A stretch of DNA of 61,315 nt, counting the filler, from Hausera hauseri (Eukaryota): the NCBI GenBank assembly GCA_046269625.1. It is 10 parts of 10 records of this genome, joined end to end, with 100 filler letters (N's around TTAATTAATTAA, not from the genome) between each part and the next. Parts side by side here need not be neighbours in the genome. Positions count along the whole stretch, not along the records: positions 13,694 to 23,449 come from JBJURY010294390.1; 9 more parts are not named here. The stretch is one strand, 5' to 3'. The translations under genes were made by a program, and so were the position numbers. Shown piece by piece: positions 5,140 to 44,682 of this stretch. A model generated the notes under the pieces. The model was given only the letters and a program-made list of their open reading frames with translations. It did not search any database and was not told the origin of the DNA. How positions within the stretch are numbered: position 1 is the stretch's first letter; each line of letters begins with the position of its first letter.

Positions 5140-5239
5140 NNNNNNNNNNNNNNNNNNNNNNNNNNNNNNNNNNNNNNNNNNNNTTAATTAATTAANNNNN
5201 NNNNNNNNNNNNNNNNNNNNNNNNNNNNNNNNNNNNNNN
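5140..5239. other. Artificial contig linker (first of nine; others at 13594-13693, 23450-23549, 28020-28119, 33269-33368, 39398-39497, 44683-44782, 50379-50478, 56706-56805)
   Basis: Identical 100-nt N44-TTAATTAATTAA-N44 block with stops in all six frames. Sequence content changes abruptly at each one. Confidence 0.98.
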
Positions 5240-5271
5240 AAAAATGCCGACTAACCCACAAAGGAAGCACA

Positions 5272-7133: not shown

Positions 7134-7180
7134 AAAAAGGAAATTAGACAGTTTAATTTGGCCGGAAAAATACATTAATA

Positions 7181-7450
7181 ATGTACCAGGATGAAATACG
7201 ACCTCGTCAAAGGAGCAACTTTGATGTCTACCAAAGCATTCAATACGCAAATTACCTATGGGAAACACCCGACAATATAAAAAAGAAACTTATATCCTTT
7301 TACCTCAACATGTATAAGAAATATTTTGAGCAATACTTAAAAGAATCAAAATATAATCCTAATACTCATTCCATGAAACATAACTTACTACTAATCACCA
7401 GTTTTCAACGCCATCTTTCCAAGGAAGGACACCGAAAGGATAAATTATAG
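7181..7450 (+). pseudogene. Hypothetical fragment of the same decayed ORF
   Basis: 89-aa ORF bridging 6333-7133 and 7458-8648. Confidence 0.35.
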
Positions 7451-7457
7451 CTCAGAG

Positions 7458-9353
7458 TTGAGAATATTTGATGAAATTATGAATGTATCAGGCCTAAAGC
7501 TCTCATGGTATAATCCTATGCATAAACTAGCCAAAGCTTTGAACTATAGGTGTGGAATACAATCTACCCATCTCGAAAACCAGAAACATAAATTAATAAT
7601 TATGTATGAGCTACAACTGTTAATTATACCACAATTGTTAACAAAGATACGATCAGTTGACTTACTGAATGTAAGACATAATTTTAGTGAGAGCGAAACA
7701 CTTGTAATCGGATCCGCCATAGATTACGAAGCTTTATTTATAGGTAGCAAAGCTGAACGAAATGTTTTAACAGGATTTCTTCGAGGAGATAAAGCCTCTC
7801 TCTCGGTCAATCACATCGAAAGAGAAGTCGAAAGTGAATTACTTGGCATAAAAGATTATGTTAATGACGATGAAATGTATAGTGTAATTAATTACCATCA
7901 AACTTTGTATGAATGGTTTGGATTAGAATTTGGACAACAATGTAAAGGCGACATATACACACCATGTATTATAGCCTATTCAACGATGAAATTAAAAGAT
8001 AAACTCGACAATGAAGCGTTACAAACAATAGAAGAAGAGGAAATCAAAATTCTATGGAATAAATATTTGAAACGAAATTCAAATCATGAGCTTACCAAAC
8101 AGGATTACCAAGATATATACTCATTTTGTAATGTGAACGTAGACGGATTATCTAGACGAATAAATGCTATTCGATACCGTTTAATATTTTGTTTACTACC
8201 TATACCAAATCAAAAAGCTGAAAACTTTAAATTAGAGAGTGAAAGAATAATATCACAAATAAGGCCAATTGGCCGAGACAGAATTAATGACTGGATAAAA
8301 TTCGTAACTAAACCCTTTACCCTAGCAGCACCAATGCTTATGCCATCATTTCTAATTAAGAAAGCTAATGCAGAAATGACTACCTACATTACAGTATCAG
8401 CAAATAAGCCAACATTCTCTCCAATATCCATAGTAGAATACACTATTTCTGTAATAATATTAACACTTCTAGTTAGTCTTATAATAGGAACAATACTATT
8501 CTTTAACAAGAAAGTTAACCGAAATAAGCGATTCAATTCTACTAAACAAAATATATTACAAACAATTAGTGGATTTATGATTAGAAGTAGCCTAATACCC
8601 ATGGTTAAAGCCAAAACATGTAATAAAGAGACATATGCCTACAATTGAAAGATGGATATAATAAGACTAATGTTGCTAATATCATTCGTTATTGCATTAA
8701 TTAGTTACATCGCCACATTAATCAAAAGGTCTTATAAAATACGGCGAGAAATGAGAAGAAGAGAACAATTAATGTTGGACGTGGAACCAGCAAATGAGGA
8801 ACCACCTCCAAAGTATGACGATGTCTCGAGCAAGTCACCATGTATTTATAAACGAATAGCAATACCCGTGGCCTTGTCAGCACTCAACGTAACTTCAACT
8901 GAAGCAAGTCAATATGAGTATGCAGTCATCTCTGCCCTACCAGTTGTAGATTATAAATTATTTTTACTACTAATGTTTCTAATTGGTTTAGCCAGTAGCA
9001 CAGTCGCATTAATAGTAGTAGCATTTTATAAATTTTGCCGGGTAGTAAAATATTATCAAAGGATAGCCAAACAGTCGCCTCCTCCTGATTACGAAGCATA
9101 CCATAGAAATTATGGTAGACCAAATCCAATACTTATACCTACCCTAGTAATATGTTGTTTAATTGGAAACTGTGCTGCTCAACCAATCAGTTCACGTGAA
9201 CAAAATTATTCGAAATATGTAAAATTCATATCATACGTATTAGCGATATATGTAGTCGAACAATTAACGGAATTAATTCGATTCGCGAGGCAACAATGGG
9301 AAGAGAAGAAACGAGCTAGCAGAGAAGAGTTTTGGGTAAAGTTTCTGACATAA
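7458..9353 (+). pseudogene. Multi-pass membrane polyprotein with repeated signal-peptide/TM/PPxY modules (one in-frame TGA at 8646-8648)
   Basis: ORFs 7458-8648 and 8652-9353 are in the same frame. There are four hydrophobic TM-like stretches plus PPPKY and PPPDY. Confidence 0.6.
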
Positions 9354-9655
9354 TAGTCCCTATGATAGTCCTAAATTACGTGATACATAAAGTAGAAATG
9401 ACCGAAAACCCGTGGACAAAAGATTCTCATATACAACGGTTACTAAAGAAATAGTCAACTGTTTTAACAAAAGGAATTGTTAAAAGCCATACATGGCCAA
9501 GAGCGGAATTAGACGATATATCCTGGATGGAAGATGAATAAATACAATTAAAACTTAATAGAATAACAATAAACCGACTCATCGTTTCAGAGAATAATAT
9601 ATTTAAATCAATCACCAATACTATTCTAGTAGAATTTGGGAAAACCTATAAAGAA

Positions 9656-10021
9656 ATGTCGACAGAAGATAAATTCTTACTTCTAAAATCATGTGATTCA
9701 ATACGGAATAATGAAATAGCAAAAGGTAACACTTGGAACAGTTCAGCATTAATAAAAAGATTCAAATTTTATAAGATGAATGACGTAGACCGATCAATCG
9801 AAGTACATGGAATAACACATTTGCTACAAATGCTTAATAAACCACGAAAACAAGACCTGGATGTGGAATGTGAAATTATTAAGCTGAAACAACAATATCC
9901 AAAGAAGAGTCTTAATGAAATTATACATTTCCTCCGTCAACAACATTTAAAAACCAGAAAACAGAAAGTATCAAAACAGAGCCAGCCAAAAAAACGGCAA
10001 CAGAATCAGATTCTGAGTTAA
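9656..10021 (+). CDS. Hypothetical basic protein, probable continuation of the decayed ORF
   Basis: 121-aa ORF with no recognised motif. Confidence 0.3.
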   Translation: MSTEDKFLLLKSCDSIRNNEIAKGNTWNSSALIKRFKFYKMNDVDRSIEVHGITHLLQMLNKPRKQDLDVECEIIKLKQQYPKKSLNEIIHFLRQQHLKTRKQKVSKQSQPKKRQQNQILS

Positions 10022-10089
10022 CTTACAAACAAATTTAGATGCGTATATTTTTATGGGAAATTAATAGATCCCCGAATAAACAACAGTCT

Positions 10090-11170
10090 ATTGAATATCC
10101 GGTAACCAGCACATCAGAAGATTCTCCTCGTTTGGTGTTTCATCGCCGAGTATTTTCCGTTCTGCATCGCCCGAAGTGAGACTGAAACGACCCTCGAAAG
10201 ATGTTTTGTGGGTTTGACCTTCGGCAACGCAATATCGTTGGAACGATTTTCGAATTCTGATTTGCGATATTTGAACTCGCGGTCTTTCTGATTGTTTGAT
10301 AAGTTCGACTCGAAATGAATGGTAGTCAAAAAGGAATGAGAATTCTTGTTGGACGTCGAGAAAGCTGGCGAGAAAGTACTACAAGAATTGTTCAGACATT
10401 TGTCATAATATACTGTGATGGTGCTGCCGTCGACCACTTGCATTTCATCATAAATAAAGGGTTTTATATCAAGCGATGATGACGGTGCATCCGAAAAGTG
10501 GCGCATTAGTAAATTGTGTTGTGACTGCAATGTCTCGTTCTAAATGAGAGATGTATTGTCGTTGACAGACTGTCGTGGACGATCAGGTGTATCCGTGAAT
10601 ATATGTTTCAATTCGTACTCCTCATTTGGTGTATCTTCTTTAACAAACGAAATTGTCTCTGTTGGTCGAGTGACAGTGGCTGCCTCTTGTGCAGCGGCAA
10701 TATTCAGACGATGAAGTTCCAAGGATGACAGATTTTCCGGGTTGATCATTGGATCTATTATTTTTAAGAAAAATTTTTGGGCTTCTAAGTATGGTTTATC
10801 TGTGTTAAAGATTTCTGAAGTCCCATTCAACGTTTGTAGGAATTTGCCAGGAAGGAGAGAGAGAGAAAAACGATAAAGCCTTCTCCATGGAACTCATGTA
10901 AAGGCTGGCCGACCATCCAGAATAAATGATGATCCATGTAAGTGACTGTTGTCATGGTCCAAGAGGAAAGACACACATAGAAAGTAACGTGGGTCTCCAA
11001 AAACAACGGTTTCCGGTATCCCACTTCTGACACCAATGTGTATGTCTCTCATATTATTTCTGTTAATTCGATAAAAATTTTTGATAGAAATTGATCTTTA
11101 AGAATTTGAATAAGTTTAGTTACAAAAATGACGCCGGCTAGAAAAACTAAAATCAAAATATAAATGACTG
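10090..11170 (-). mobile_element. 5' fragment of a second LTR retrotransposon (LTR end, PBS, decayed gag-proximal ORFs)
   Basis: PBS at 11018-11035 followed by minus-strand ORF pieces 10540-10830 and 10114-10530. Boundaries are approximate. Confidence 0.55.
11018..11035 (-). promoter_or_regulatory. Primer-binding site (tRNA-Leu) of an LTR retrotransposon
   Basis: The minus strand reads ...CACA T TGGTGTCAGAAGTGGGAT. This is complementary to the tRNA-Leu 3' end and lies 1 nt after a CA LTR terminus at 11037. Confidence 0.85.
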
Positions 11171-13593
11171 TAAAACATTTTAATGTTTTTTTAAATCATA
11201 ATCTTTCTTCTAAAAACATATTAACTTTCTCGGACACATTATTTCGGAAAATGGTCATTATCCTCATTCAGAAAGTGTTGAAGCTCTCAATAGTATACAA
11301 CTACCCCGAACAACAACTAAAATGAGGAGCTTTTTGGAACTTTGCACTTCGTTCACAAGTATGTGACGTACTGTTCTGAATTTACAGCACCATTTGCTCA
11401 CTTAATCAGTGGCAAAAAACATATGCCAATCCAATGGACATTTAACCTAGTTGATAAGTTTGATAAGCTCCGCGAAGGAATTAAGACAGTAAATATTCTC
11501 GTTATCCTCAAGCCTGATGCGGAACTCATCCTTACTACAGACGCTTCAACCACTGCGGTAAGTGGTATGATTTACCAAATACACAAAGGAGAAAATGAAC
11601 CACTAGAATTTTTTTGTGGTAAGCTAACATACCCTGAACCTCGATATTAAACGTTCGATCGAGAATTATTGAGCATAGTTCTCGCTTCAAAGCGTTTCTC
11701 TCACCTACGTGTCGCTCGCCGTTTTACCATACAAATCGATCACAAGTTCTTGCTAAACATCATGACTATAAAATATCTATCCTCACGCCAAGAACGACAG
11801 ATATCATATCTGTTGATATTTAAATTTGACATTAAACATATTAACGGGGGTAATAATTTGGTTGCCGATTTCCTATCTAGGACGGTTGGATCGATTAACT
11901 TTTCACCAATCTTCTCTCAAGTATAACTTCAACAGAACCAGCCACCAAAGGACATGCTTAATTCTTTTACGTCTTACACAATTGTTGACGGCGTGGTTTT
12001 AGACACTTCCAAGCCAGGTCTTTATGTAATAATTTTCGCACCACCTTTACAACGGCAAGCGTTTAACAGTGTACATTCACTGCACCATCCTGGTACTAAG
12101 GCAATTTTTCGCTTATTCCACTGGCAAGTAATATGGCCGACTATGCGTTCTGATGTGCAAGCGTGAGTTAAGGAGTGTGTGGTTGACAGAAATTTAAAAT
12201 CACTAAATATTTGAAATCACCACTATATCATTTCCACTGCACATCACGTTTCGAGTCTGTTCATGTTGATCTCGTTGGCCCTCTTCCTCCTGACAACGGT
12301 CATCAGTTAATTTTGACAATGATGGATCGTTTCTCACGTTGGCCAGAATCTGTTCCACTACGGAGCACAAACATGGACACAATAGCCGACGTTTCTATAC
12401 GTACTTGGATTAACAGATTTGGATCCACTAGATTCATTATTACAGACCAAGGTACTCAGTTTGAATACAATTTGTTTAAATTTCTTGTTAACCGATTAGA
12501 AATCAGCCATATACACACATCACCGTATCACCCCCAATCGAATAATCTTCTAGAGAGATTCCACAGAACACTAAAAACGTCACTGAGAATCCTCAAAGAA
12601 ACCAATAGCAGTTGGACTACTCTTCTTCCGCTGGTTCTTCTGGGTTGGCGCAACACCCCTTCTACTTCCACTGGTTGTTCACCTACGGAAGCCCTCTTCT
12701 GAACACCTATACGTTCATTATTTGAATTAACTGCCTTGGAAGACGCACCTACGGACAAAACTATTCGAACGGCACAGGACCATTTCCTCTCAGTCAGTAA
12801 AGTTTCATTCTGCAGGATAAGAAATAACAATAAAACGTACCTACTGGAAGATTTATACTCGGCAAAGTCCGTCTGGTTAAAAATCTAGACGCTTTGCGAT
12901 TTTCAACCACGGTATTTGGGGCCCTACAAATTCGTTCAATTGCATTCCCACAATGCCATTATTTCAAAAGACGGTAAAAAACTAGCGGTGCATGTCAACA
13001 ACGTAAAGCCTGCATTTTTCGTAGATGATACCCCAAATTGAACCTTTTATCCCCTTTTTGACTCCTCCACATTTTCCTCCTTCAGTTTGTTCACCACCTA
13101 CACCAATTTCCATGCCGATCCCTATTTCTACTTATCTACCAGAACCTCCTCCAATCTCCGATTCTACTACCCTAACAACTTTTACTCCCTCTTCTCCTAC
13201 ATATTATCCTCCATTTCCTTCCCCGTCTTTGTACGACACAACAACTAACACGACCAAATCCGATTTTATTGTATCTGAATCACGTCAACAAGCATGTTCA
13301 TAAACATTGAATATTCACAAATCAGTTACATTTAGTACCTATAGTAAGGCGATTAACACTGCAAAAGTACAACGTCTTACCAGCACAAAGACCACTTAGA
13401 CTGCTTGCACCGTTTCTACCCATTTTCTACTTTCCTACCACCCTAGTCTTTGCTTTGCCACGGGGGGGTCATTGTCTTTTCGTGCCGCAGTGTTTCATCC
13501 AGACCACAACAATTCGAATTTGTGGATCTCTGTTTCAGATTGAGAGATATTCTGATAATGTAACGACAAGCGATAATTGAAACAAAGTTCAAT
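11170..13593 (+). mobile_element. Degenerate Gypsy family A copy 2 (RT end, RNase H, integrase, Pro-rich tail, PPT, start of 3' LTR)
   Basis: LTTDAS, HVDLVGPLP, ITDQGTQFE, LERFHRTLK. PPT GCCACGGGGGGG at 13457-13468, then TGT at 13473. Collinear with copy 1. Confidence 0.95.
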
Positions 13594-13839
13594 NNNNNNN
13601 NNNNNNNNNNNNNNNNNNNNNNNNNNNNNNNNNNNNNTTAATTAATTAANNNNNNNNNNNNNNNNNNNNNNNNNNNNNNNNNNNNNNNNNNNNTCCGACC
13701 ATTGTGCTTTAGTTTTAGGAACATAAGAGGCAATTAATGATAATGCTAAAATTATCTGTACGTAGGATATTGGCCTATTAATTATAGGAGATGTCCTTGT
13801 TTTTCTTTTGTCTTGACTTGGCTTTAAACTATGATCTTT

Positions 13840-14888
13840 AGATCGTAAGTTATAACGTTTTTCCGGTTATTTTTCTGTTTTAACAACTCTTCATATAGGT
13901 AATACCTCTTCTTTGCCATTTTTAATAATGTAGACAGTAGTTGAAGTGGTTCGAATAATTTCATAAGGTCCTCGTCCTGTACGAGCAAGTTTTAACGACG
14001 TACCTTTCCTTGCGACTGGATAGTGTACATAAACCCAATTCCCTTTCTCTAAATCGTGAGGTATGGCTTTCTTATCATATTGCTTTTTAAACTGTTCTTG
14101 ATATTCGAAAATTAGCGTCCTTGTTATATCCCAACACTTTTGTAATCTCATTTGTAAACTTCCGCGAAATTTGGTTCTAAATCTTCTGGATTTGCATGGT
14201 ACGGAGTCATTCCTAAGTCCGTAGATAATATTGCTTCGCGTCCATACATCATAAAAAACGGTGTAAATCCTGTGGCGAGATGTGGAGTAGTATTGATAGC
14301 AAATTGTGTTCCTTCTAAAAATTCGTCCCAATCCTTTTGGTCCTTTGCGACTACGGTCGACAAGACCCGTAGAACTGTTGCGTTCATAGGTTCGACCATT
14401 CCGTTGCACTGAGGGTGATATGCGATAGTGGTCAGTCGTTCGATTTCAAAGATTTTGGAAATTCTATCACTCGTAAAATTTCTTCCTCTATCGGTTAATA
14501 TTTGATCGGGGGGTCCATATCTGCAAATAACTTTTCTCACTACTGCGTCTGCTAAGGTTTCTGCCTTCTGGTCAATTAGTGCTATTAATTCAACAAAATG
14601 TGTTAGTCTATCCACGCATGTCAAAATATATTTGTTATTTTTGTGAGTCGTAGGTAGGGGTCCTACTGTATCCATAGACATAGCTTGCATAGGCTTGTAT
14701 GGTACATTGATTTGTTTTAGTTCTGCTATATAGTTTTTCACCTTTTGTTTCGTCGCGCAGACTTCACAAGCGTCGACCCAGTTTTTCACATCGATATAAA
14801 CGTTCGGCCAGTAATACTTATTCAATATTCTTTCTAGTGTTTTCTTCCATGACGTGTGTCCAGCCAAATGTGATTCATGTTCGGCCAT
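13840..14888 (-). pseudogene. Gypsy integrase
   Basis: HESHLAGH..YYWP..CEVC zinc motif, MDTVGPLP, LTDRGRNF, YHPQCNGMVE, GPYEI and terminal RYNLRS. Confidence 0.95.
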
Positions 14889-15199
14889 TAATACTTACGT
14901 TCGTAATCCCTTTGGAATGACTACTAGTTTCCGTCCCTTTCGTTCGTAATATAAAATATTGTCTTGATTCGAATCATAATATTTATGCCCGTGTCTTTGT
15001 AAATGTTTCTTTAATTGGCGTCCTTTTGGTATTTCATTTAGCTCGGCAAATTATATTATTATTTGTTGAATAACCTTATTCTTGGCTTGTTCCGAAGAAA
15101 TTTTGATTGTTTTATTCAGTGTTAAGGTACGTTGTCGTTCTAGTATTTCTTCGAGTTGAACCTTCTTCATAGTATTAGTCGTACTTAACTTCGTCTTAA

Positions 15200-16444
15200 G
15201 TCTTGATTGTGCATCTGCGTCAATACGTTTACTTCCGCGTTTGTATTGAAATTCGATATTATATCGAGAGATTTCCTCGATCCACCGATTTAGTCTACAC
15301 GTCGGGTTATTGGCCCGCCCTTTAACGTTGTAACAGCCTTGTGATCGGTAACTATAATAATTTTCTACCCGTAGACATAGACATTAAAGTGCCTTAGAGC
15401 TTCTTTTACGGCTAATGTCTCTAGTTCAGTAACTGAATAACTTTTCTCGGCTTTCTTCAGCGATCGTCCTCCATATGCAATCGGATGTTCCAATTCTTCA
15501 TCTCGTTTCTGAGCCAATTCGTAACCAATTCCATCTTTACTTGCGTCTGTTTTAATTATAAATGGTAAATTAAAATAGGGATATCTTAACACTGGTTCAC
15601 TTGTTAGAATTTTCTTCATTTCATCGAACGCTTTTTGTTCGATATCGGTCCATTTCCACTTGCGCCCTTTTTTCAATAGTCGATATAATGGTTCATTTAT
15701 TTTCGAATTGTCTGGCACATAAGTGGCATAGTACCCACATAAGCCTAACCAATGTCTTAATTCTTTCTGATTTTGGGGTTCTATACAATCCGATATTTTG
15801 CTCAGTAGAGATTTATATGGCTTCGACCCTCCTTCTCCGACTATATGTCCAAGGTAAGACACCGCATTTTGCGCCCATTTACATTTCTTAGGGTTCAGTT
15901 TCAATCCTGTCTGTTCCAAACACATAAGAGTATCTTCGATGTCCTTTAGGTGTTCTGTTTTCGATGCTATCATTACATCATCTGAATAGGCGAACGCGTG
16001 ATCGAGTCCCATTAGCATTTTATTCATCATTCTGAATATAGCTGGGCCGGTTGTTATACCGAACGGCATGACATTAAATTCGTAAACTCCGTCATGTGTT
16101 TTAAACGCCGTTTTATAACGATCATCTTCAATTTCCACTTGCCAATATCCGGATTGTAAATCCAGTGTGGTAAACCACTTTGTTCCTGATAATCTGTCTA
16201 ATGCTTCCTGTACTGATGGTAGTGAAAACGAGTCCTTCATGATAAGCGTGTTCAAGGCTCGGTAATCTATACAGAATCGATGTTTAGTGGCACTTTTTTT
16301 CTTGATCATAAGTATTGGTAAGTACCAAGACCGGTAGCTTGGTCGTATTATGTCGGCTTTCAACATACGTTCTACCTCTTTCGTTATCTCGGGCCTTAAC
16401 AAATGAGGCGGTGGGTACCATTTAGACATCTTTTGCTCTTCCAA
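15200..16444 (-). pseudogene. Gypsy reverse transcriptase and RNase H
   Basis: RFCIDYRALN, LDLQSGYWQV, MPFG, AYSDDVMI, KTDASKDGIG, YSVTELETLAV. Confidence 0.96.
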
Positions 16445-17039
16445 ACCAATTTCGTCATTGGAGCCAAGTTTCTTTTTTAATGGAATGGTTAATCTTAAGG
16501 TTTTTGCTCTACCTATATCTTCATTTTAGGCAATAATCGACTTATATTTGCATAGTAATTCGTAAAATTGGCAGTATGCTTCTGGTGAAAATTTCATTTC
16601 AACACGAGGTGGAAACTCAATAAATTTGTACGGTTTTTCTTCGATTGTTATTGCCGATATCTTACAAGTATGGCCCAACGTAGTATTGACATACAACCTT
16701 ACGGGGGTTGGTGCATTATTCACTAACCTAATCGGTACTCGTCCCGTCGTCACTCTTGTTAATACGTTAGTGAATGATATTGAGGTTAACGTCTTCTTGT
16801 GGCTCAAAGTAAACTGGTTGGTCGTCTTCCCGAATTTGAGCATAAATTAACATTTCGGTTCTGGGCGGAATATTTTCGTCGACGGGAATCCATACTTCTA
16901 GTTTCTTTTCTTTCACTGTTTTAATCCCTTTCACTGGCCCCAGTTCCAGTAGTTTCCCTGTATGTAATTTATTGCGATATTGGGTAATTGTTTCAGTATA
17001 TCGCATCCTAACACTACATCATCGGTTAGTTGATCCATT

Positions 17040-17387
17040 ATGGCAAACTGGTGTCGAAGAATTTGACCCATTCATTGAAGTAAGGGACTCCACTTAAATT
17101 TCGGTTTTGATTCCTGCCCGAAGGCTCCTATGCTACTTGGATCTGACGACGATGCTGGCTGCATTTGTTTTCGGTGTAGGCTGTATTGATTCTAACTTAA
17201 TAAACGATTTTTCCGATCCGGTGTCGATTAAGGCATAGATTTCCCAATCCTCAATGGTAACTTTTGTGAAGGGTCTCCTTTCCATAACTGTTCCATAACA
17301 ATTTGACACGTCCTTTGGTCGTTTAATTGAAGAAATCTTGTGTCCGTTTATTGTTATCTCTAGTGATGAAATGATGTTTTCGGTCAA
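17040..17387 (-). pseudogene. Retropepsin-type aspartic protease
   Basis: IYALIDTGSEKSFI. Confidence 0.9.
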
Positions 17388-17899
17388 CTGTTTCAGTTCG
17401 TTAGAGTATAAATCATTAATTGCTATGCTACCTGCATTGTTCTTGTGCTATTGGATTTCGGAGCGATTCCGATCCTTGTGTTCCCCAAAATGTTGATCTT
17501 GACTCTACTACGAGTTATTCTTGGTGAGTACAATATTTTATGGTCATCTTCCGCTCGTCGCTGATTAGTGATTTGCATTTTCTTCAATACTCCGCATTGA
17601 TTTGTTCCTTCATGAGGGTCTTCATAGCTGAAGGGTTTCCGATGGATTTCCGATTTCTATGACATCATATATGTTCTGTAGCAATCTTCGTATATTGGAG
17701 CTGTCGGCGGCATGATGGGTAAAGGTGCCTTAATTACTGTATACATTTTGTGCCTATTCGGTCTGAGGATTGCTTCTCCTTCATTAGGCTCGTCATCATG
17801 GGAGTTCTCTTTGTGTAATAAATTTCTTAGCTTTGCGTTTCTATAGAAATGTAGGTCTCGCTCGTCGTTTGTAATTATGGTAGCCGACATGGCGTTCAA

Positions 17900-19710
17900 C
17901 GTCATTTCTCCACCGATTTTCTTCGTACGCTTTGAGCATTTTGCCGAACGGTGATAACTGCGGTTAAAATCTTGCAGGAAAATCCTGTTAACGTGAATAT
18001 TTCGTATCCATTTATAACCGCCTGAATTACTGCCTTTATTAACTGTATCAAGAAATAAATTACTAAAAATCCGGATGCGGCTTATCCAAAAATTAAAAAT
18101 CTTCCCCATATTTTGTAGAGTATTTCTGTGGTCACCCTTTGGTAATGATTCACACCGAGTAAAGATTCCCATTTAGCCTGATATCGGGTATCATCTACCA
18201 CTGATGCCATGGCTAGGTTTAATTCGTGTGTCCGCTGCCGTGGAAAAGCGAGAAATTGTCGAAAAGCTTCGATCTCTTGGTCTGTAAATGCCCTTTTGTA
18301 ACGTATCTTGGAACTTGTCATCGGTAATCTCTAGCTAAATTAGTTCGCTAAATTAGAACCGTAGTGACACCTCCGTTAGGTAAACTAACCCAATCCGTTT
18401 CGCTACGTCTAAACATTGGTTCTCCCAAACTTGCTGTGTTGTCCAGCAACACCCTAGTAAGGGGCATGGCTAAGCGTGGAGTGTTCCGATAAATCACAGG
18501 GAGCTCTTGTATACATCATTTTTCTTCGACATTAATTGGTACGTCTCTTTTCTCACACTCATGTCAGTAGAACTTCGCCAGTAACTCGACCAAAGATTCC
18601 TTTCCTCATGGGAATAATTGGTGAGGCTAGCTCAGGGTTTATTAAATAAGAGCTATTTTTGTCCTCATAATTTCCGTATCTAATTTGCAATCATTAGTTA
18701 TCATTTTATAGTACAGTTCAGCTATGCCGACTTGTCCTTTATAATAAAAATAATCGTCCCGGTTTTTCAGATAATCCTCAATTCGAATGTCCTGCGTTTC
18801 TAAGTTATGTTTTCGCGTTTATCTCCGTTTCTGCGACGAAAAATGCTTCGTAGTTAGAGGTGAACATTACTACTTCATAATGTGAAATCATTTCTTTTTT
18901 ATGAATTTCAGTTCATGTTGATCAGAGATTAGTATCGTAGGTGTATGATGTTCTGATACGTCTTCGCGTGCTCTTGAACTGACATCGGATTTGTCTATGT
19001 ATCTATTCCCGGTGGTTTCATTAAATTTCAGTTCCTTAATCCTAATAAAATTACAGCCTTTTCCGGAGGGCGGTTCCCATATTACGACAGAACTTCTAAA
19101 GGGACAGGTTCCGTCCTGTATGTGGCATTTCTGGTTCTCGGTGTATAGCTTAGTGACAATATGGAACATCACTTTCTGAACTCGCATTTCTAATTCGTAA
19201 AAGTCTACTACTACGTTTGTTTCCAACCCTTTTCCAGTGTCGTATTCCGTTCCACTACACTGCCCATTATGCATATCTAGTCTTCCGACTACAATCTTAT
19301 ATGCTCTAATTATTTTTCCGGGCTGCATCTCTAGTTCCATATCCCATTTTAGTCTTCCGGTTTCTCGAGCCTGTTTGCAGTGTTGTCTCTCCAAATTCAT
19401 TGGAATTGGAGGGGTCGTCGGTTTGATTATCGAGGAATGTCCATGCATTAATCCACAATGGAAAATGCTACGAGATCTTCTCAGCATACACTCCATGCCG
19501 TCCAAAGATATCAACTCTTGTTGTTAGTACAGGAAGTAACTCTTCTCCTTTGTTTCCAATGTATATGGTCTGGCATCTTCACATGCTTCTAAGTCGATTA
19601 GTGAATATTTTTGTCCAAGCTTGAATCTATCAGTCATAGACAGTAACAACACCCGTCTGTTTTATTAACATCATTATGGTGAATAACCTGATTAACCAAT
19701 TAGATTCATT
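17900..19710 (-). pseudogene. Env-like glycoprotein related to chuvirus-type glycoproteins, disrupted
   Basis: Signal peptide WLIRLFTIMMLIKQTGVVTVYD, then GQKYSLIDLEAC, ECMLRRSRSIFHCGLMHGHSS, CKQARETG, GQCSGTEY, CHIQDGTC..VIWE, FTDQEIEAFRQFLAFP and a C-terminal TM (FG*AASGFLVIYFLIQLIKAVIQAVINGYEIF). Confidence 0.8.
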
Positions 19711-20411
19711 CTTTCGGTTATTATCCGTCATTGTCACGTTCGGCAAGATGTCTTCGAGCCTATTGTTACTATTGGTCCTTTTTCTTCCTTATCATATAAT
19801 CTTGGACAATTTACTTCGCAAGGGAGCTTTCTAGCCTCTTTCCGTACCAAACTTGTAGCTCGGTTAAATTCACTTTCTCTATTTGGGTTTGTCTTGATTG
19901 CCAAGTACAATAATACTTTCCTTAGCTCTTCTGTCGTATTCTCCACCATAATTTTCTCAACTACTGCGTAGTCAGTTAAGGTATTCTTAGATAACTTGAA
20001 ACGTTAACTTCTCATAATCCTAGCTGAATTAATTATTGCTTCTTCTTTATCATCTAATGCATCTCCTCGAAGGCTTGAATAATTTACAATACGTATTAAA
20101 TTCCTCATTAGTTCATTTAATTCTTCATTATCAGTACTGAAAGTGGGAATTGACATTTGTCTCAATTCTATAATCAATTCTCCGTTATAGTCCGCTTCTT
20201 CTCGGGCTTTTCTAGGCTTACCGACTGGGCGTTTTGGTCTTGGGGCATTAGTCATTATTCCACTCAATGACACTAAATTCTTATCGTATTGTTCCTTGTC
20301 TTCATCCATTTGTAAATACTCGAAATTCATCACAGCACCTCTTACTCCTGTGATTTGTCATACGCATTGCTCCGTCTTAGCCTTACGCGTGGCTTCTTTT
20401 GTCTGCTCATT

Positions 20412-20630
20412 ATCTACTACTACAACTATTCGATTTGTTTCACCGGGAATAATTCTGACGTCTATTAACTGTTCTAGATCGTCGAGTATTCTTCCTCTAA
20501 AGTAAAATCTGTAATTTAGCTCATCTGTTCCGCCATTCTTTAATAACCATTCTCTTATGTCCTTTACATAAGTGTAGTTAACTCACATTCCTTCTCTTCC
20601 ATCCAGTCGGATGATATCATCACTTTCATC
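20412..20630 (-). pseudogene. Ubiquitin-like domain within the element polyprotein
   Basis: Manual translation: MKVMISSDWM...TYVKDIREWLLKNGGTDELNYRFYFRGRILDDLEQLIDVRIIPGETNRIVVVV (one frameshift). This fits the ubiquitin RLIFxGKxLxD pattern. Confidence 0.75.
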
Positions 20631-22118
20631 GTTGCCTCAGGTTTAGCCCTCAAGATGTTCGCATACTTCTTTATCAAAAGTTTCGGCACCACGCTGTAAA
20701 TTTTATTCTCACTAGATAATTTAGTCAAAGTCGGAATAAGTCTAAGCTTATTTTCAGAAATGTTTACGTTAATTAGTTCAGTTAATTCCTCTTCAGTTGG
20801 CACTGAGTCCAGCAGCACATCCACGTTAAATTTCCTGTTCTGCAAATACATTTCTATTTCATTCAGCTGTACCAGAGTTAACGGATTTTCGGCCGTTATT
20901 GTTTCTAAATAAGCATCCCATTCGGGTTCATTTCAAATATCTGGGAGTCCATAGTCTACTAAAGCTGTGTTCTTTCTTTGCACATTTTCTCGAATTTCTT
21001 TCAATTTTGGTTGTATTTCTTTCATCTGTGTAGTCCGGAAACCTATTCCGTTTCCACAGTCATATTGAATCAGTTTCAGTAGTTCGCCTAATTCATTAGA
21101 ATTGATGAATCCCTTCAGGTGATAATCGGTTAGTTCAATAATTACGTCTCTTTGCCATAGCTGCACAAATTCTCGCTTATTTTTGATTTCTGATTCCGTA
21201 AAAGCATATTTATTTCGGTAGTTTTCAAACTCTTACTAGTTCATCTAACGTCGTTGCTCTTTGTTTCGTTCAGATGCACGTTTCTTCAACTTGTTGTAAT
21301 TTGGGCATCAATTGTCTCATCTTCTCATCGTTAATCTCCGCCATTTCTACCAATAAGTAGGCTACATCTCATTTATAATTTTTGAGTCGGGGTCCATTGC
21401 ATCCAGCAATTTCTTAACGAACTTAGATTCTTCGAAACTAAGACGTTGGTCGTTTCGTATTTTCGTCAATTCGGTATGACAATTCTGATCTGTACCGGCC
21501 ATCCATTCTTGTGGTTTGTGCAAGAATCTTACTGCTTCTGCTAGAGCTGCTCTATGTTCTGGACAAATATCTAGGATTTCGATATCCTGGATTGAAATCT
21601 CGTCGATAGGTTTATCCGTTAAATGTTGGATTCCGGTTGTCTTAATTCGATTGCTTCATCGAGCTTTCCTTCGCTGCATAATTTTAAGCTTTTATATAGT
21701 TTCTCTGCAAATTGTTGCTCTTTACCAGATATATCTGTTTGTTTACTGATGTTTAAGTTTTTCTAAATTGTGTCGGAGTATTTCTGGATCGTGATATCTA
21801 ATTCTCATTCTCTTTAGTTCGTCGGCCTTCTTCCATGAACGTCAAACTTTCCATTTTCTCTCATCAAAATCATTACTATCTTCCGTTTCTTCCTTAATGG
21901 CGGGAAGCGGACAAATTTCATTGATTTCGTCATTAATGTTTCGTCATCACTTTCAATTTCATCTGTCGTTTTGTCTGGGTTATACTTTTCGGCCTCTGCG
22001 TCTAAATCTACATTCTGAGATACCGTTGGTTTCTCTGAATGGGCTATTCCTTACGGAATAGACTTCTTGTGCGCCATAATTTATTATTTGGTGCGAGTGC
22101 ATATTCTTCGGTTTGCGG

Positions 22119-23449
22119 TTATCTTAGTCCTTGATAGACTTCCATTAGTCGTAATTTCTCTTCATATTCTTTTCTAGCTTTTATGACTTGAGGATTAGTA
22201 GTTTCACCTAGATTCCTTACAGACCTAGGCAGGCCTTGCATTTCAATAATCATGCATATATCACCTCGTTTACCATAGATAGCTTCTAAGTTATTTTTAA
22301 TAATACTTCTTTTGTTCGGTTCATTAAATGCGACACTTCTGGGATTTGGACATGACCTAGCAATATGCCCTTCTTTACCACATGTAAAGCAAATTAAATT
22401 CCAATTTCGACCAATCCGTTGTCTGCCATCTTCATTCACAGGTGATTTTGATCTGTTTATATTCTTATTTTGATTATGTGGTATTTGTCTGTTATCTCCG
22501 TCATACTTGTTTTCATTACTACGATTATCCGTGTATTTATTATTTAGTCGGTAACTACATTGGTTCCTATCGGGATTATAGCCCGGTTTACTATATGAGT
22601 TGAATGTATTCCGATTATTACTAAAATTTCTATTGTCTCTTTGATTCCTGTTCCTATTATCAAAACCTCGGTTTCGGGTATTATCATTAAATCGTCTGTT
22701 GTCTTGGTTCTCGTTTCTATTCCGATTATTACGGTCTGTTCCTTTCGTATTTGTCACCTTGTTTGGCATCTCTCCAATGCCATCACTAGGTCCTGAGCTA
22801 ATTGTAGCGTTTTCTCAAAATTGTCGGGTCTGGCCAAAATTAACTGTTTAACTAGATCTCTTGACCATATTCCACTTATTAACTGAGTTGTCATCATGAC
22901 GTATAAATCTGGCGGGGTCGCCTTTTCCGTAGCATCGCGTTCTGCGTCTGTTTTAGCTTTTGCTACGTTAGCTATTCTCAAGGTACTTACATAGCTATTA
23001 GCGAGTTTCTTCAATGCAAATGCAAACTGGGTTACCAATTCACCCTTCTGTTGCACTCTGTTTTGAAATGCCATAAGTTTCTGTTGTGGCGTTACTGTTG
23101 GCAATAATTTACGGTTCAATGCTCCTACCAAGTAGGACCAAGATTTCTTCTCATCATTAGTGAGCTCGTTATAAGCATCAGCGGCTAAATTCTTTAAATA
23201 TAATGATAAACGTTTTATCGTTACTTCAGGAGTGAGACTAGCACCTTCTGCGTGCAATTTATAAGTTCTCAAAAAGTCGTTTAGTCCATCTGGGTCACCA
23301 TCGTATGCCGGCAGATTCAAGGAATAAAATGTAAAGATGTCAAGCTTCTGTGCTACGGCTGGATTATATGCAGCCGTGTTTGCTTCATTCTTATAAGGTT
23401 TATTGTTTAGCTGAGGAAGTTTAAACTTACCGTTTTGTTCGACGTTAGT
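22119..23449 (-). pseudogene. Gag (capsid-like domain, Asn/Arg-rich linker, CCHC zinc knuckle), frameshifted near 22760
   Basis: LPAYDGDP..FL..Y, YLKNLAADAY, RVQQKGELVTQF..ALKKLA, CFTCGKEGHIARSC. Confidence 0.92.
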
Positions 23450-28494: not shown

Positions 28495-29340
28495 TTAAAG
28501 TATAAAAATTTTGTCCAATAGACATCTCTGGCAATCATCAAAACTGATTTCATTCTTCTCCATCCATCGTCGGTAAACCAATTCACCGATTTTCGGATAA
28601 CCGATTGAGGACAACGCATTCACCAGCTGGTCAACATACTCCATTTCGGAAATCCGATTTATTTAAATCATTCTTTTCCATGCAATAAGAACTCGATGCG
28701 TCACACTGTTTATACTATTTACAGAAAGTTGAGACAATGAATCAAAACTAATGCCAGCAACAACATTTTCCGGGAGAGATAAATGTATTCCAAATGTAAG
28801 GCCTTGTCGTATTACTGTGGAAAGAGACGTGAGGCTTTTGCGAGAGAGGATTTTCGGTTCACTTTCGACAACCTTATTGATAACACGTGGCCTGGACAGT
28901 GTGATGATTGTAGTTCAGTAGCCGTGGGTGATTATTTTGAGACAGCGTTTCATTACCTAGAAGCTTTTGTCTTTCAGCTTCCGATCTTTCATTTTCTTCT
29001 TTGATTTGTTCTTGTTCCATGGTATCACGTTCTTCTTTAGTAAACAGATGGAAGTATTGCTTCAAACGGTAAGCAGGAATAAAATTTTAAATAGTTGATT
29101 CGGTATATTGATCAAGAAATGAATAAGATTCAATGGTACAATATTGAGTTCTGCCTCAAAGTAAAAATCTCTGTTAATTTCAGACAAATGAAATTTGAAT
29201 TGTTGTGGTTTTGATGAAACACTCCGACACGACGGAATAAAATAGCAAAAGTGCACCAATTCGTCGGCAATTGTAAAACAAACAACAATAAATGAGAAAA
29301 CGACTATAGTGTATTTACAAAATCCTGTTGGGCACAACAC
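28495..29340 (-). pseudogene. Death-domain protein C-terminus (DTHD1-like), with an in-frame stop
   Basis: Manual translation 28860 to 28495: EPKILSRKSLTSLSTVIRQGLTFGIHLSLPENVVAGISFDSL..VTHRVLIAWKRMI*..VDQLVNALSSIGYPKIGELV..KNEISFDDC. The assignment of the upstream part is less certain. Confidence 0.6.
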
Positions 29341-29349
29341 AGGCCTTGA

Positions 29350-31800
29350 CTTTCCTCATCCATACATTGATGACATATTAGTTGCCTCTACATCTGTTAA
29401 ACAACATCAAGAACATCTTTGTATTTTCTTTCACAGACTACATCTCAGCAATATGCAAGTCAACTTCTCCAAGTGTCATTTCTTTCAAAAACGTGTAAAT
29501 TTCCTGGGTCACGTCATCACTCCTCACGGCCACTCTCCACAACCGGATCGACTACAACAATTGAAAAACATAACGCTACCAACGACTAATACGGATATGA
29601 GGAGTTTCTTAGGCACACTCCACTTCATTCACAAGTACGTACCGCATTGTTCTGATCTTACAGCACCTTTTGCGCATTTATCATCCGGAAAAAAGTGGCA
29701 GTCAATTCACTGGACTCCTGATTTAGTCACCAAATTCGACCACTTACACGAAGGCCTAAAAACCGTCGAAATAATGGCCTATCCAAAGCCCAACGCAGAT
29801 CTTATACTTACCACTGATGCCTCTACCATAACAACTGGTGCAGTACTACACCAGATCTCTAACGGCGTCGATAAACCATTAGAATTTCACTCCCGAAAAG
29901 TAACACAACCCAAAAGCAGTTAGTCTACGTTTGACTGTGAGTTACTCACTATAGTTCTGGCAGTAAAACATTTCAAATACTTACTTCTTTATCGTCCATT
30001 CGTTATTCAAACTAACCACAAGCCTCTCCTGTATATCATGTCGTTAAAACAGCTATCACCGAGGCAAGAACGACATATATCATACTTTTCTACATTCAGT
30101 TTTGTCTTACAATACATTTCAGACACATTCAATTTGGTAGCAGATTTTTTATCGAGGTCGGTTGGCTCCATTACAGTTGAGTTAATTTTCTCATCCGAAG
30201 CCAATCAACCATGTGCTGACTTCCTTAGCTCTTTCAAATCCTTCGAAATCATTGATGGCGTGGATTTTGATACGTCGAATTCCGGTAATAAAAAGATCAT
30301 TCTAACTCCATCTTTTGCCTGCTTCAACACCATGTAGTTTGGCCATCAATGCGCAAAGATTTACTGGGCTGGGTTAAGAAATGCGTAGCCTGTCAAAAAT
30401 ACAAAATCACCAAACATCTGAAACCTCCGCTTTACCATTTCTCCTGTACATTACGTTTTCATACAGTTCATCTTGATCTCGTTGGCCCTTTACCTGCTGA
30501 CAACGGATATTAATATATCTTTACTATGATGGATCGTGCTTCTCTCTGGCCTGAAGCAATTCCTTTGCGTTCAATAAACATTGATTCAGTAGCTGACGCC
30601 TTTATAAAAAGCTGGATCAGCAGTTTTAATTCCCCACGTTACATAATAACGGATCAAGGTCCACAGTTTGAATCGGAACTCTTCAAATCGCTTGCAAAAC
30701 ACTTGGGGATATCCCATTTCCATACAACTCAATCTCATCCTCAAACAAATGGCCTCCTTGAAAGGTTCCATCGAAAAATGAAAGTTTCTTTAAAAATCCT
30801 GGCTGACACTCATCGTAATTGGATGTCCATTCTACCATTTGTTATACTAGGGTGACGCAACACATTCTCTACCACTACCGGTTGTGCTCCATCCGAGGCA
30901 CTCTTTGGGACTCCAATTCGAGATTTATTTGTACTTTCTGATCTCGACGACAACCCCACAGACAAAAACATTTGTGCAGCACAATCTCACTTCATTGAGG
31001 TCAGCTGAGATTCATTCTGTCGTTTCTTTAACAACAATAAATCCTCTATTCCGAAAGATTTATACCCCGCCACGTTTGTGTGACTGAAGGATCAGTCACA
31101 TTCGGGTTTTAGCCTCAATATGTTGGCCCATACAAACTGCTGAATCTTTCATCTTACAGAGCTACCATCTTGCGCCAAGATAAACCTTACAACGTTTATA
31201 TTTCGAATCTGAAACCCGCTTTCTTCATTGACCATAATCTGGATGCCAATTCTACCTCCAATTCAGACTCTACTCCTACTCCTTCCGATTTTCTAAATGA
31301 CTTTGCGCCGTCGCATCAATCACCTTTCTGTCCCTTCCTTTCGTCATCTTCACCATTTTCTTCGCCTTCTTTGCCTACATCGACTGTTTCCTCTCCTCCA
31401 ATTGTATTGCCTACTTTGTTCGACATATTCTGCTCATCATCCCTATCGGTTTCATCAGGAACAACACCGCACACGGAGTTAAGTAATCTCACTAAATTTC
31501 CATCACACAACGTCGCACAACAACCAACCACAAACCAATCATGTAATGGCGTGCCGAGTGACATTTAGAACTTACAGCAAAGAAAAGTTCCTTGATAGCA
31601 CACAACGCATAACACATACCAAAATCGAATAGACACTGAATATTGTTCCTTGTTATTTTATTGTTTTCATCGTCATGATTCTGTCCTTTTTACCTTACAT
31701 AGTTTCTCTTCTGCCACGGGGGGTTGATGTGGTGCCGCGGTCGCGGACGTAACTCTGTACCGTCATATCAATCAGACTCATATCTTAATATCAACATACC
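29350..31800 (+). mobile_element. Degenerate Gypsy family A copy 3 (RT end, RNase H, integrase, Ser/Pro tail, PPT, start of 3' LTR)
   Basis: PYIDDILVAS, LTTDAS, ITDQGPQFES, NGLLERFHR. PPT GCCACGGGGGG at 31713-31723, then TGT at 31728. Confidence 0.95.
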
Positions 31801-34656: not shown

Positions 34657-34663
34657 TTGTCTA

Positions 34664-41891: not shown

Positions 41892-41980
41892 ATTTATCAA
41901 TAAAGTAATTAGCATTCAAGATTACGACCAGGAAAGGGACACCTTACAAGGTAGGAATAGAAGATAACCCACCATTTGGA

Positions 41981-44682
41981 TTGGAATTCATAAACCACCT
42001 GAGTGAAGAAGAAGAAGATAGAATGGCTAGAAATGACCATGTAGTAGAGCAGGTGATACAGTCAAAAGCTGACTTCACCTTGCCAATGAAGAAGTTTTCA
42101 GGAAAGGAGGACGTGCAAGATTTTATTATGGAGTACGAGGTCTATTCAAAAAGTTTCGGATGGACGGACCAGCAGCGAATGGAAAGATTACCTCTCCATT
42201 TAAGAGGAACAGCCTTAACCATTTACTTTCAGATGCCTGAAGACGATAAAAAAGATTGGAAAACCGTCAAAGAAAGATTGCCACAGAAGTTTTTAGTTGA
42301 TCCTTCCGGAAAAGGGAGGATAGAGGAATTTATACGAAGAAGGCAACGAAAAGACGAGACGGTTCAAGATTATGTATGCGCACTGGAGAAATTGGCAGCT
42401 AGGGCATATCCTGATGCAACAATAAGAAATAACGCGTTGTTGGCCCAATTCCAATATGGACTTGAAGGAAAGTTAAGGACGATAATATTACAAGCCGATC
42501 CTCCCACGTTTCAAGATGCCATAAGGAAAGCACGTAAGGCAGAACGAGACGAAGAACTGTATAAGTGGACTAAGCCAAAGAGATACAACGGATACGACGA
42601 TAAACGAAAGAATAATAGTACCCAAAAGTACGAAAGGTATAATAGGAATAGAAGTCCCTCACAAACTTCAGCCACGGAAGCCGAATCTGACGTTGAGAAG
42701 AAAGTGAGGTTTAAATTAAAAAACGATGGAGAAAAATCCAATTACAAGAAGAAAAGCTCAAAGGACGGAAGAGCCTTACCAAATATAGACTCCGAAGGAA
42801 GGCTAAAATGTTTCAATTGTAACAAGTATGGCCACATAGCGAAGGCATGTCGATCACGAAAAAGGGATTCTTCAAAGCCCTATAAACAAAAGAAAAAGGA
42901 ATATACGTCAGCCACATCGGACGAATCATCCGACCAAGAACACGAAGAGGACGAAAGTAGCAATGAGCAAGAAAGAAAGAACAAAAAGAAAGAAGGCGTA
43001 AATTATATTAACGACATACTATCCAAACGTATGAGAACCCAATTGGATATGGAATTAAGAGATTACAAAACCCAACAAAAAAGATTGAAAGAAAATAGTA
43101 TCTATGTACTAGAGGATAAACCTAAAGATAAACAACCCCGAAAAGGAAGAAAGAAAAGTAATAAGGAAATAACAGAGGCGGAGGCTGGATCAAGAGAAAC
43201 ATCAACGGAAAGGGAAGAGGTAGTGAAAGAAAGGAAAAGAGGAGGAAAGAAGGGCAATCTCAGTACACCTTCACCCTCATTTAGCCCCGAAGAAACTCAA
43301 GCTTCACCCTCATTTAGTCCAGAAGAAACTCAAGCCACGCCCATCTTTGATGATACCATATTGAACCAAGTAATAAGGAATCCAGAAGTAGATTTAGATG
43401 CGGAAGATGACCTTATTCAAGCAGTAGTGGCGATAGATCCTGAAAATATCATTAATGTAAATGAAGCAACAAGTACAATATTAAAGTTAATAGACAATAA
43501 AGTATCTCTGAATAAGATAAACGAAATATTATTTCAGTTATTGATGCTGGCCCACGATACGAGCCCAATAAGAGATATTGTACGGACAATACTAGCCAAA
43601 GCAGCTGAAGAAGAGAAAGGAAGAAACGAAGTAATAAGGATAACGTTAAAAGAAGGAAATCAGGATGTAAGAATTATAAGAATGAATGAAACAGACGACG
43701 TATTAGCACTACGCGATAAGATTGGAGAATTAGAACCATTCTACAAAGAAAAGATGTATGGACTAAGCTTTTATGGCAGAACTTTATACAGTTATGATAG
43801 CTTGTTACGAGTAGGATGCAGAAGTGAAAACTATAACCCAATCACGATAACAGACATTCATCCGGGGGCAAGAGCAGAAGAGACGATAGAAAATATAATA
43901 AGAGAAGTAGAACCTAGAGAAGTTGAGGAACAACCATTAGGTGACGCACACGATGTCATAGTGCAAACAGACGCTCGAAGAAGGGGAAGACCGAAAGGAA
44001 CAAAAATAAGTGACATCCGAAATAAAAAGGATCGAAATGAAGAAATAGTACGACGTCTGTTGTTAGCAGGTACAGATACAACACCGGAATCAGTAGACAT
44101 AGATCCATTATTAAGAACGTTGTTAGCTAGATTACATACGTCGTTCGCATCGTTCGATATGCAGACGGTAATTCCTGATGACTTATTCCAGACGCTACGT
44201 AACAGTATGTTAAAAATCAGTAGACAGTTTTATGAAAATATTGGTGAAGAAAGGATCAATGAACTGCATGAGCAGGATATACTAGAAAAGATGTTTGCAA
44301 CAGGAATTACACGAGAAAAAGTACGGACGGCTATTGCTTACTTACTATATAAAATAATCGTAATAAACCACCAAACTCAAAATTTAGAGGAAATTGAAAG
44401 AAATATTAAAGCAGCAATAAAGGTCTTAAAAGATACACTAGAAAATTGGGTACAGTGTAGAGGTGGTTGGTTGGCAAGTCTCACGAAAAATGTAAGAATG
44501 GAAGAAGGACAAACCGGGTTACCAACGCCATCAAACATACATACAACTCGACAAGGCATAACGGGAATGACGATGATGGAGATCCTTCAGTTAATTCTAA
44601 TAACTTCGTTGATAATGCCAAAGGCCATGGGCCTGGTAGCATACGATTGTGCAAATCCCAAGGAAGGACAGAAATATTCGTT
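41981..44682 (+). CDS. Open Gag-accessory-Env polyprotein N-terminus of Gypsy family B copy 2 (truncated by the contig end)
   Basis: About 900 uninterrupted codons: Gag (KFSGKEDVQDF, LHLRGTAL, RRQRKDETVQDY), CFNCNKYGHIAKAC, Ubl (about 43628-43855), RRRGRPKG, Bcl-2-like region ending LENWVQCRGGW, then signal peptide and AYDCANPKEGQKYS. Confidence 0.92.
43269..43334 (+). repeat. 33-bp in-frame tandem duplication (SPSFSPEETQA x2)
   Basis: CTTCACCCTCATTTAGCCCCGAAGAAACTCAAG followed by CTTCACCCTCATTTAGTCCAGAAGAAACTCAAG. Confidence 0.95.

What the first reader, a model, noticed from the sequence alone, without database searches (positions are those of the whole stretch)
17900..19710. Chuvirus-type glycoprotein placed between gag and pol
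Seen: a full-length but decayed glycoprotein (signal peptide, YD(C), SLID..C, HCGLMHGHSS, several Cys motifs, FTDQEIEAFRQFLAFP, C-terminal TM) about 600 nt upstream of the DTG protease, on the same strand. Known: env genes of retroviruses and errantiviruses lie downstream of pol, and AYDC and HCGMHSH-like motifs typify chuvirus-like glycoproteins. Inference: an independent env capture in an unusual position. The in-frame fusion to Gag in the second copy argues against a chance nested viral insertion. If translated as one polyprotein, Gag and Pol would both be cytosolic around a lumenal Env.
Basis: partly seen in the sequence, partly recalled or inferred. Interest (0 to 1): 0.88.

Follow-up and report, generated by a model that had tools for sequence, protein, structure and literature searches.

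The report
Decayed Burro-like gag-env-pol retroelement
This is a broken copy of a virus-like jumping gene with a viral-type fusion glycoprotein gene between its capsid and enzyme genes, likely once made as one long membrane-crossing protein; that layout is already published for flatworm elements, so it is a new family member rather than a new kind.

Summary
On the minus strand of a 9.75-kb contig the order is Gag, ubiquitin-like domain, signal peptide, chuvirus/gB-type glycoprotein (PF24664 in three collinear pieces), TM, protease, RT, RNase H, integrase. Env is broken by stops and at least four frame changes. It is not a nested insertion: database relatives carry Gag-Env or Gag-Env-protease in one frame, and divergent contigs in one run cover all parts. 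The 'second copy' is a different family (no DNA match) whose contig ends 14 residues into Env. That family adds a Bcl-2-like domain between the ubiquitin-like domain and Env. This copy has only an uncertain remnant of one. The layout is published: Gag-Ubl-BCL2-Env-PR in frame for planarian Burro (PMC6431247), and GAG-ENV-POL gB-type errantiviruses in flatworms, nematodes and bryozoans (PMC13524379). The scan also noted this layout before on other DNA (e1-8073080). An independent capture is not supported. What remains of interest is a divergent, compact family, and the untested idea that Env's signal peptide doubles as the Bcl-2 tail anchor.

The parts
22750..23449 (-). Gag capsid region, cut by the contig end
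   Evidence: tblastn of P0001, P0005 and the second element's Gag, E 4e-16 to 4e-13 and better
22340..22394 (-). CCHC zinc knuckle (nucleocapsid)
   Evidence: PF00098 E 7.6e-7; motif at 22391
20800..22300 (-). about 500 codons of decayed, unassigned coding sequence
   Evidence: no Pfam family above cut-off in the frame read for 20603-21949; other frames not scanned in full
20660..20794 (-). helical domain shared with relatives (weak)
   Evidence: best non-self hit of a local profile, 0.9 bits against at most -1.7 in reversed controls
20421..20576 (-). ubiquitin-like domain
   Evidence: tblastn P0003 E 1e-4; local profile 7.1 bits, controls at most -1.8; 0 of 1000 shuffles reach the score against 3 of 5 relatives, not significant against the other 2
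20211..20228 (-). AT-hook-like motif at the place of the RGRP motif of relatives
   Evidence: sequence; position relative to Ubl and Env; the AT-hook label is recalled
19850..20200 (-). possible degenerate Bcl-2-like domain (inconclusive; no BH2 GGW in frame)
   Evidence: collinear with the second element, 2 of 1000 shuffles; P0003 32 of 1000; P0001 723 of 1000; hhalign P 0.11; no hit with the local profile
19633..19731 (-). Env signal peptide-like leader
   Evidence: hydropathy 2.4 over 11 residues; same place as in P0001, P0071, L001
17968..19622 (-). chuvirus/gB-type Env, full length, broken by stops and frame changes
   Evidence: PF24664; tblastn P0071 E 1e-45 over 19622-17968
18046..18096 (-). 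Env C-terminal transmembrane segment
   Evidence: Kyte-Doolittle peak 2.25
17184..17303 (-). aspartic protease, DTG motif at 17225-17217
   Evidence: PF00077 E 0.0024, below cut-off; motif
15365..16525 (-). reverse transcriptase (YSDD at 15988) and start of RNase H
   Evidence: PF00078 E 9e-30, PF17919 E 5e-31
13900..14894 (-). integrase (HHCC, core, GPY tail)
   Evidence: PF17921 E 2e-15, PF00665 E 3e-13; GPY motif seen
41912..44680 (+). second, separate family: open frame Gag-CCHC-helical-Ubl-RGRP-Bcl-2-like-signal peptide-start of Env, cut by the contig end
43628..43861 (+). ubiquitin-like domain of the second element
   Evidence: aligned with P0001, P0003, P0005, P0012; PF00240 E 0.0046 in P0003, below cut-off
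43979..44494 (+). Bcl-2-like domain of the second element, with BH2-like GGW
   Evidence: PF00452 E 0.004, below cut-off; 9 of 11 weak PDB hits and 59 of the 60 shown of 108 profile hits (best E 0.005) are Bcl-2 family
44582..44650 (+). signal peptide and AYDC start of Env of the second element
   Evidence: hydropathy peak 1.89; continues into PF24664 in P0001 (E 6e-19)

Best explanation
This is a decayed genomic copy of a Ty3/gypsy LTR retroelement with a chuvirus/gB-type envelope gene between gag and pol, likely inherited from the known GAG-ENV-POL errantivirus/Burro-like lineage and likely once translated as one membrane-spanning polyprotein. Shown: the gene order, the identity of Env, the decay, and one-frame Gag-Env and Gag-Env-PR in relatives. 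Inferred mechanism for intact family members: Gag with its accessory domains is made in the cytosol; the internal signal peptide threads the Env ectodomain into the ER lumen and signal peptidase frees its N-terminus just before the xDC motif; the C-terminal TM returns the chain to the cytosol, where the protease cuts out PR, RT/RNase H and integrase; Env trimers would act as a class III fusogen that lets particles move between cells. The Ubl and Bcl-2-like domains would act on host ubiquitin and cell-death pathways. This copy itself cannot make Env or Pol.
For: PF24664 collinear over profile 37-599. P0071 (Gag-SP-Env-TM-PR, one frame) matches 19622-17968 at E 1e-45. P0017 also holds Gag-Env-PR in one frame, and P0001 holds Gag-Ubl-Bcl-2-like-SP-Env. 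L001 has the same domains in one frame with a single stop before the signal peptide. Cys spacing 11-26-40-44-7-17 here against 11-26-40-45-7-16 in P0001; the same pattern is seen by eye in Smed_errantivirus_1-6. In run X1, 31,391 contigs, mostly 80-95% alike, cover 30 of 30 bins including Env, and none of the 15 joints shown (145 not shown) skips Env alone. Base composition of env (G+C 39%) is like gag (37%) and pol (38.5%). Published layout.
Against: No single record seen here spans Gag to integrase in one frame, and this copy is too broken to show its original frame. 0 of the 120 listed RT relatives carry a matching Env (that search was limited to proteins of at most 2000 aa, best identity 47%). 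No tree was built with Burro or Smed_errantivirus sequences, so common descent rests on domain order and Cys pattern. X1 may be the window's own source, gives no copy number, and no listed contig spans the element. The stop before Env in L001 could mean Env-Pol is expressed differently there. The class III fold was not confirmed by prediction. The host is not known.
Confidence: 0.88

Rival explanations
1. Same element, but Env (or Env-Pol) is expressed apart from Gag, by splicing, read-through or an internal start just before the signal peptide, which would avoid a 1:1:1 Gag:Env:Pol ratio.
For: L001 has a stop between the Bcl-2-like domain and the signal peptide. This copy and the second element each have Met codons just before the hydrophobic leader.
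Against: The second element, P0001, P0017 and P0071 run open through the junction. L001 has no Met between its stop and the leader. Burro is described as one ORF. The two modes are not exclusive.
Confidence: 0.2
2. An independent, lineage-specific capture of a chuvirus G gene into a gag-pol element.
For: GAG-ENV-POL elements are not monophyletic in the POL tree. This Env is only 25-29% identical to its nearest relatives found.
Against: Same Cys spacing and the same upstream helical-Ubl-RGRP cassette as relatives. The paper reads the arrangement as old diversification, not recent capture.
Confidence: 0.08
3. A chuvirus glycoprotein fragment inserted by chance into one copy of an ordinary gypsy element.
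For: The copy is decayed, so frame continuity cannot be seen directly. One X1 contig joins 22214 to 17888 (depth 8.7), which could be a form without the middle cassette and Env.
Against: Env bins are covered like the rest of the element. The gene runs cleanly from signal peptide to TM in the element's orientation. Relatives have the same order.
Confidence: 0.02

Closest known systems
Burro/GYPSM1 giant gypsy-like elements of planarians (Arkhipova & Yushenova 2019, PMC6431247, section 7 read whole; Grohme 2018 and Jurka 2007 known only as cited there)
   Same: Gag, then Ubl/SUMO-like, BCL2-like, Env with hits to mononegavirus fusion glycoproteins, then PR-RT-RH-IN; env in frame between gag and pol.
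   Different: More compact: about 3,200 codons visible with the N-terminus cut off, against 4,873-5,140 aa. One CCHC instead of two or three. No MATH, BIR or ankyrin hit in the frames scanned. Bcl-2-like domain uncertain in this copy. No direct sequence comparison made.
HSV/gB-type GAG-ENV-POL errantiviruses, esp. Smed_errantivirus_1-6, Cys configuration C1a (Chary & Hayashi 2026, PMC13524379; abstract, section 14 whole, first parts of sections 5, 6 and 9, word-search passages, Platyhelminthes rows of two supplements)
   Same: Ty3/gypsy Pol, gB/chuvirus-type Env upstream of pol, same domain I-II cysteine pattern by eye, repeated in the genome.
   Different: This copy is not intact; LTRs and PBS are off the contig; its Env is a divergent family. 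The main text does not mention Bcl-2 or ubiquitin (0 hits).
Anakin, BEL/Pao elements with chuvirus glycoprotein in mosquitoes (Dezordi 2020, PMC7642597, passages; Dezordi 2023, PMC10084718, passages)
   Same: LTR retroelement carrying a chuvirus-like glycoprotein.
   Different: BEL/Pao backbone there; here Gag and Pol match Ty3/gypsy families.

Membership tests
Ty3/gypsy errantivirus (env-carrying, sense of PMC13524379) | Gag with capsid and CCHC | tested here: met
Ty3/gypsy errantivirus (env-carrying, sense of PMC13524379) | Pol order PR-RT-RH-IN with gypsy-type RT | tested here: met
Ty3/gypsy errantivirus (env-carrying, sense of PMC13524379) | env-like gene with signal peptide, ectodomain and TM | tested here: met
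Ty3/gypsy errantivirus (env-carrying, sense of PMC13524379) | LTRs and primer-binding site | not testable with these tools
   contig ends inside gag and just after integrase; no genome held
Ty3/gypsy errantivirus (env-carrying, sense of PMC13524379) | intact open frames (the paper's inclusion rule) | tested here: not met
   many stops and frame changes; this makes it a dead copy, not a different kind
HSV/gB-type (chuvirus-like, class III) Env | profile match to mononega/chuvirus fusion glycoprotein | tested here: met
   PF24664
HSV/gB-type (chuvirus-like, class III) Env | conserved cysteine pattern in domains I-II | tested here: met
   spacing matches P0001, P0071, L001; match to published C1a rows is by eye
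HSV/gB-type (chuvirus-like, class III) Env | class III fold and trimer | tested here: inconclusive
   single-sequence model of the relative L001 Env has pLDDT 32; no PDB sequence hit for Env
Burro | env in frame between BCL2-like and PR in one ORF | tested here: inconclusive
   order met; frame unreadable in this copy; in frame in P0001 (upstream side) and P0017/P0071 (downstream side)
Burro | Ubl/SUMO-like domain before BCL2-like | tested here: met
Burro | BCL2-like domain | tested here: inconclusive
   supported in the second element, P0001, P0003; weak in this copy
Burro | giant size with MATH, BIR, ankyrin modules and 2-3 CCHC | tested here: not met
   about 3,200 codons visible, one CCHC, no such Pfam hit in the frames scanned; the 5' end is missing
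Burro | dUTPase-like region between PR and RT | tested here: inconclusive
   no Pfam hit for 16529-16846; the region matches other gypsy proteins
Burro | RT clusters with Burro | not tested
   no Burro sequence was available from the tools
BEL/Pao Anakin | BEL/Pao Gag-Pol backbone | tested here: not met
   Gag and Pol hit Ty3/gypsy-type families and relatives

The most novel reading that the evidence does not exclude
In these compact Burro-like elements the Env signal peptide doubles as the Bcl-2 tail anchor. It lies 49-65 residues after the BH2-like GGW in three of three sequences where both are seen (measured to the xDC motif), so signal-peptidase cleavage would leave Gag-Ubl-Bcl-2 tethered in the ER membrane: one hydrophobic helix would target the capsid to the budding membrane, import Env and anchor a working anti-apoptotic protein in a retrotransposon. 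Word searches and section 7 of PMC6431247 showed no such statement; Grohme 2018 could not be read.
Probability: 0.25. Interest if true: 0.62.

Novelty: new member of a known kind. Interest (0 to 1): 0.3.

Why it matters
It extends a published but little-studied design (capsid, host-like ubiquitin and Bcl-2 modules, class III fusogen and enzymes in one chain) to at least two further divergent families in what appears to be one animal genome, and to several database sequences. It shows the cassette comes in steps: Gag-Env only (P0017, P0071), with Ubl and Bcl-2-like (second element, P0001, L001), up to giant Burro. That makes a compact natural model for how a retroelement sets its topology and ratios from one frame, and for whether a retrotransposon Bcl-2 works. 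The copy itself is dead and the arrangement is not new.

Tried and rejected
No whole genome held. Word-based search with the Env ORF among longer proteins: 0 of 211 candidates. Search with the Ubl/Bcl-2 region of P0001: only itself among 6,307 candidates. Viral-contig scans with Env, P0001 and RT: no relatives. Metagenome scan: 1 locus from 240 pattern matches. No RNA holder listed; no evidence on expression. AlphaFold single-sequence models were too poor to use: Bcl-2-like region pLDDT 44 (the VIA search gave only generic helical bundles, Z at most 7.9, no Bcl-2 among the 50 rows shown) and L001 Env pLDDT 32 (not searched). The protein atlas gave no answer. A GGW-like word in another frame near 19840 was rejected as a BH2 remnant, because it overlaps the bases that align to the preceding helix. 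The local helical and Ubl profiles were built from the second element and four stored proteins, so only P0080 (1 of the other 146 listed) and this copy are independent hits. A resemblance of the helical domain to TFIIS-N is recalled and untested. Grohme 2018 is not held; Sacco 2022 did not come up in the search. Sequence look-up in earlier findings with the RT: nothing.

Full report
Setting. The window is about ten short contigs joined by N spacers; no genome is held. The finding lies on the contig 13694-23449, minus strand. Translation shows, 5' to 3': Gag capsid (cut by the contig end), a CCHC knuckle at 22391, about 2.5 kb of decayed coding sequence, a hydrophobic leader at 19731-19633, a cysteine-rich ectodomain, a TM at 18096-18046, a linker, protease (DTG 17225), RT (YSDD 15988), RNase H and integrase.

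The observation. Pfam PF24664 (Monjiviricetes fusion glycoprotein) matches the stop-free ORF 18891-19523 at E 2e-11 and, reading single frames with X at stops, three collinear pieces covering profile 37-351, 382-422 and 480-599 of 653. The gene is full length but dead: tblastn places it in four successive frame segments, and the leader is in another frame than the first segment.

Is it part of the element? A search of 1.84 billion representatives with the second element's ORF gave 2,915 hits, 150 listed. Of 16 long ones scanned, 3 carry PF24664. P0071 and P0017 hold Gag, signal peptide, Env, TM and protease in one frame. P0001 holds Gag, Ubl, a Bcl-2-like region and Env in one frame. P0071 matches this Env over 19622-17968 at E 1e-45. 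L001, the contig of P0003, has the same domains in one frame with one stop before the signal peptide. In the one run that holds the stretch (X1, possibly the window's own source), 31,391 contigs cover 30 of 30 bins, Env bins at 4,730-21,840 summed depth and gag bins at 1,230-23,490. None of the 15 joints shown removes Env alone; 145 were not shown, and depth is no copy number. One contig joins 22214 to 17888. Base composition is even across gag, env and pol. A chance nested insertion is very unlikely.

The 'second copy'. It is a different family: no blastn match, Gag 27% identical, and only 14 residues after the signal peptide before the contig ends. It is covered in X1 over 30 of 30 bins. Between Gag and Env it has a helical domain, a ubiquitin-like domain, an RGRP motif and a Bcl-2-like domain. 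Bcl-2 evidence is weak per hit but consistent: PF00452 E 0.004, below cut-off; 9 of 11 PDB hits; 59 of the 60 shown profile hits, best E 0.005. The structure model was too poor to test it. In the finding's own element the Ubl is supported, the helical domain is weak, and a Bcl-2-like remnant is inconclusive: collinear with the second element (2 of 1000 shuffles), borderline with P0003 (32), absent with P0001 (723), hhalign P 0.11, no local profile hit. Spacing from the RGRP-like motif to the Env start is 197 codons here and 210-225 in the three relatives.

Mechanism. Shown: order, identity, decay, one-frame relatives. Inferred from signal-peptide and TM positions and general membrane-protein biology: one polyprotein, Gag cytosolic, Env lumenal after signal-peptidase cleavage, Pol cytosolic after the TM and released by the protease; Env a class III fusogen for cell-to-cell spread. 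A spliced, read-through or internally started Env is a live rival (stop in L001; Met before the leader in both window elements). Where a Bcl-2-like domain is present, the signal peptide sits where a Bcl-2 tail anchor would (49-65 residues from GGW to xDC; the tail-anchor position is recalled knowledge). This is untested.

What is known. [quoted passage not shown] Chary and Hayashi 2026 (PMC13524379) report GAG-ENV-POL with HSV/gB-type Env in Nematoda, Bryozoa and Platyhelminthes, link that Env type to Chuviridae glycoproteins, and list nine flatworm elements. The domain I-II rows of Smed_errantivirus_1-6 show by eye the same cysteine pattern as this Env, whose spacing also matches P0001, P0071 and L001. 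A flatworm-like host is therefore likely but not shown. Anakin (PMC7642597, passages; PMC10084718, passages) is a BEL/Pao case. PMC8532177 (passages) shows BURRO1 is transcribed and piRNA-controlled. Grohme 2018 and Sacco 2022 were not read and may hold more detail, as may supplementary figures that are not held as text.

Verdict. A real, correctly spotted chuvirus/gB-type env between gag and pol, in a dead copy of a divergent, compact Burro-like family. It meets the errantivirus features that could be tested apart from intact frames, and works like Burro, but lacks Burro's size and extra modules in the part seen, and no tree was run. New member of a known kind; interest 0.3.

Noticed in passing
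window 39664-41064 (+): 467-aa ORF upstream of the second element's gag; its C-terminal half weakly resembles ISG20/DEDDh exonucleases (PDB 1wlj E 0.011; no Pfam hit). It may be an accessory ORF of the element; X1 cover is lower there than over gag.
   Followed up: partly
L001 3058-3060: A single stop separates Gag-Ubl-Bcl-2-like from the in-frame signal peptide and Env: decay or regulated read-through.
   Followed up: partly
window 17888 / 22214: One X1 contig (depth 8.7) joins these places, the end of Env and the end of Gag (table 5c); direction ambiguous; possibly an internally deleted copy lacking the accessory cassette and Env.
   Followed up: no
window 46835-49429 (+): 864-aa open frame, DUF1280 E 2e-12, no PDB hit at E 0.01; looks like a RAG1-like/Transib-type transposase (label recalled).
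   Followed up: partly
window 33369-39397 (-): Decayed cluster with an integrase core (rve E 2.5e-6) and ORFs that look like Polinton capsid and packaging ATPase genes (labels recalled).
   Followed up: partly
window 56754-60344 (+): 1,196-aa intronless membrane protein with C-terminal kinase (Pkinase E 2e-36) on a higher-GC contig whose ends repeat 77 nt; may come from another organism.
   Followed up: partly
window 207-2550, 11321-12700, 29246-31565 (+): Three further decayed gypsy pol regions of another type.
   Followed up: no
window 5240-9350 (+): Several long ORFs (313, 417, 234 aa) with hydrophobic segments and no Pfam family above cut-off in the two scanned; unexplained.
   Followed up: partly
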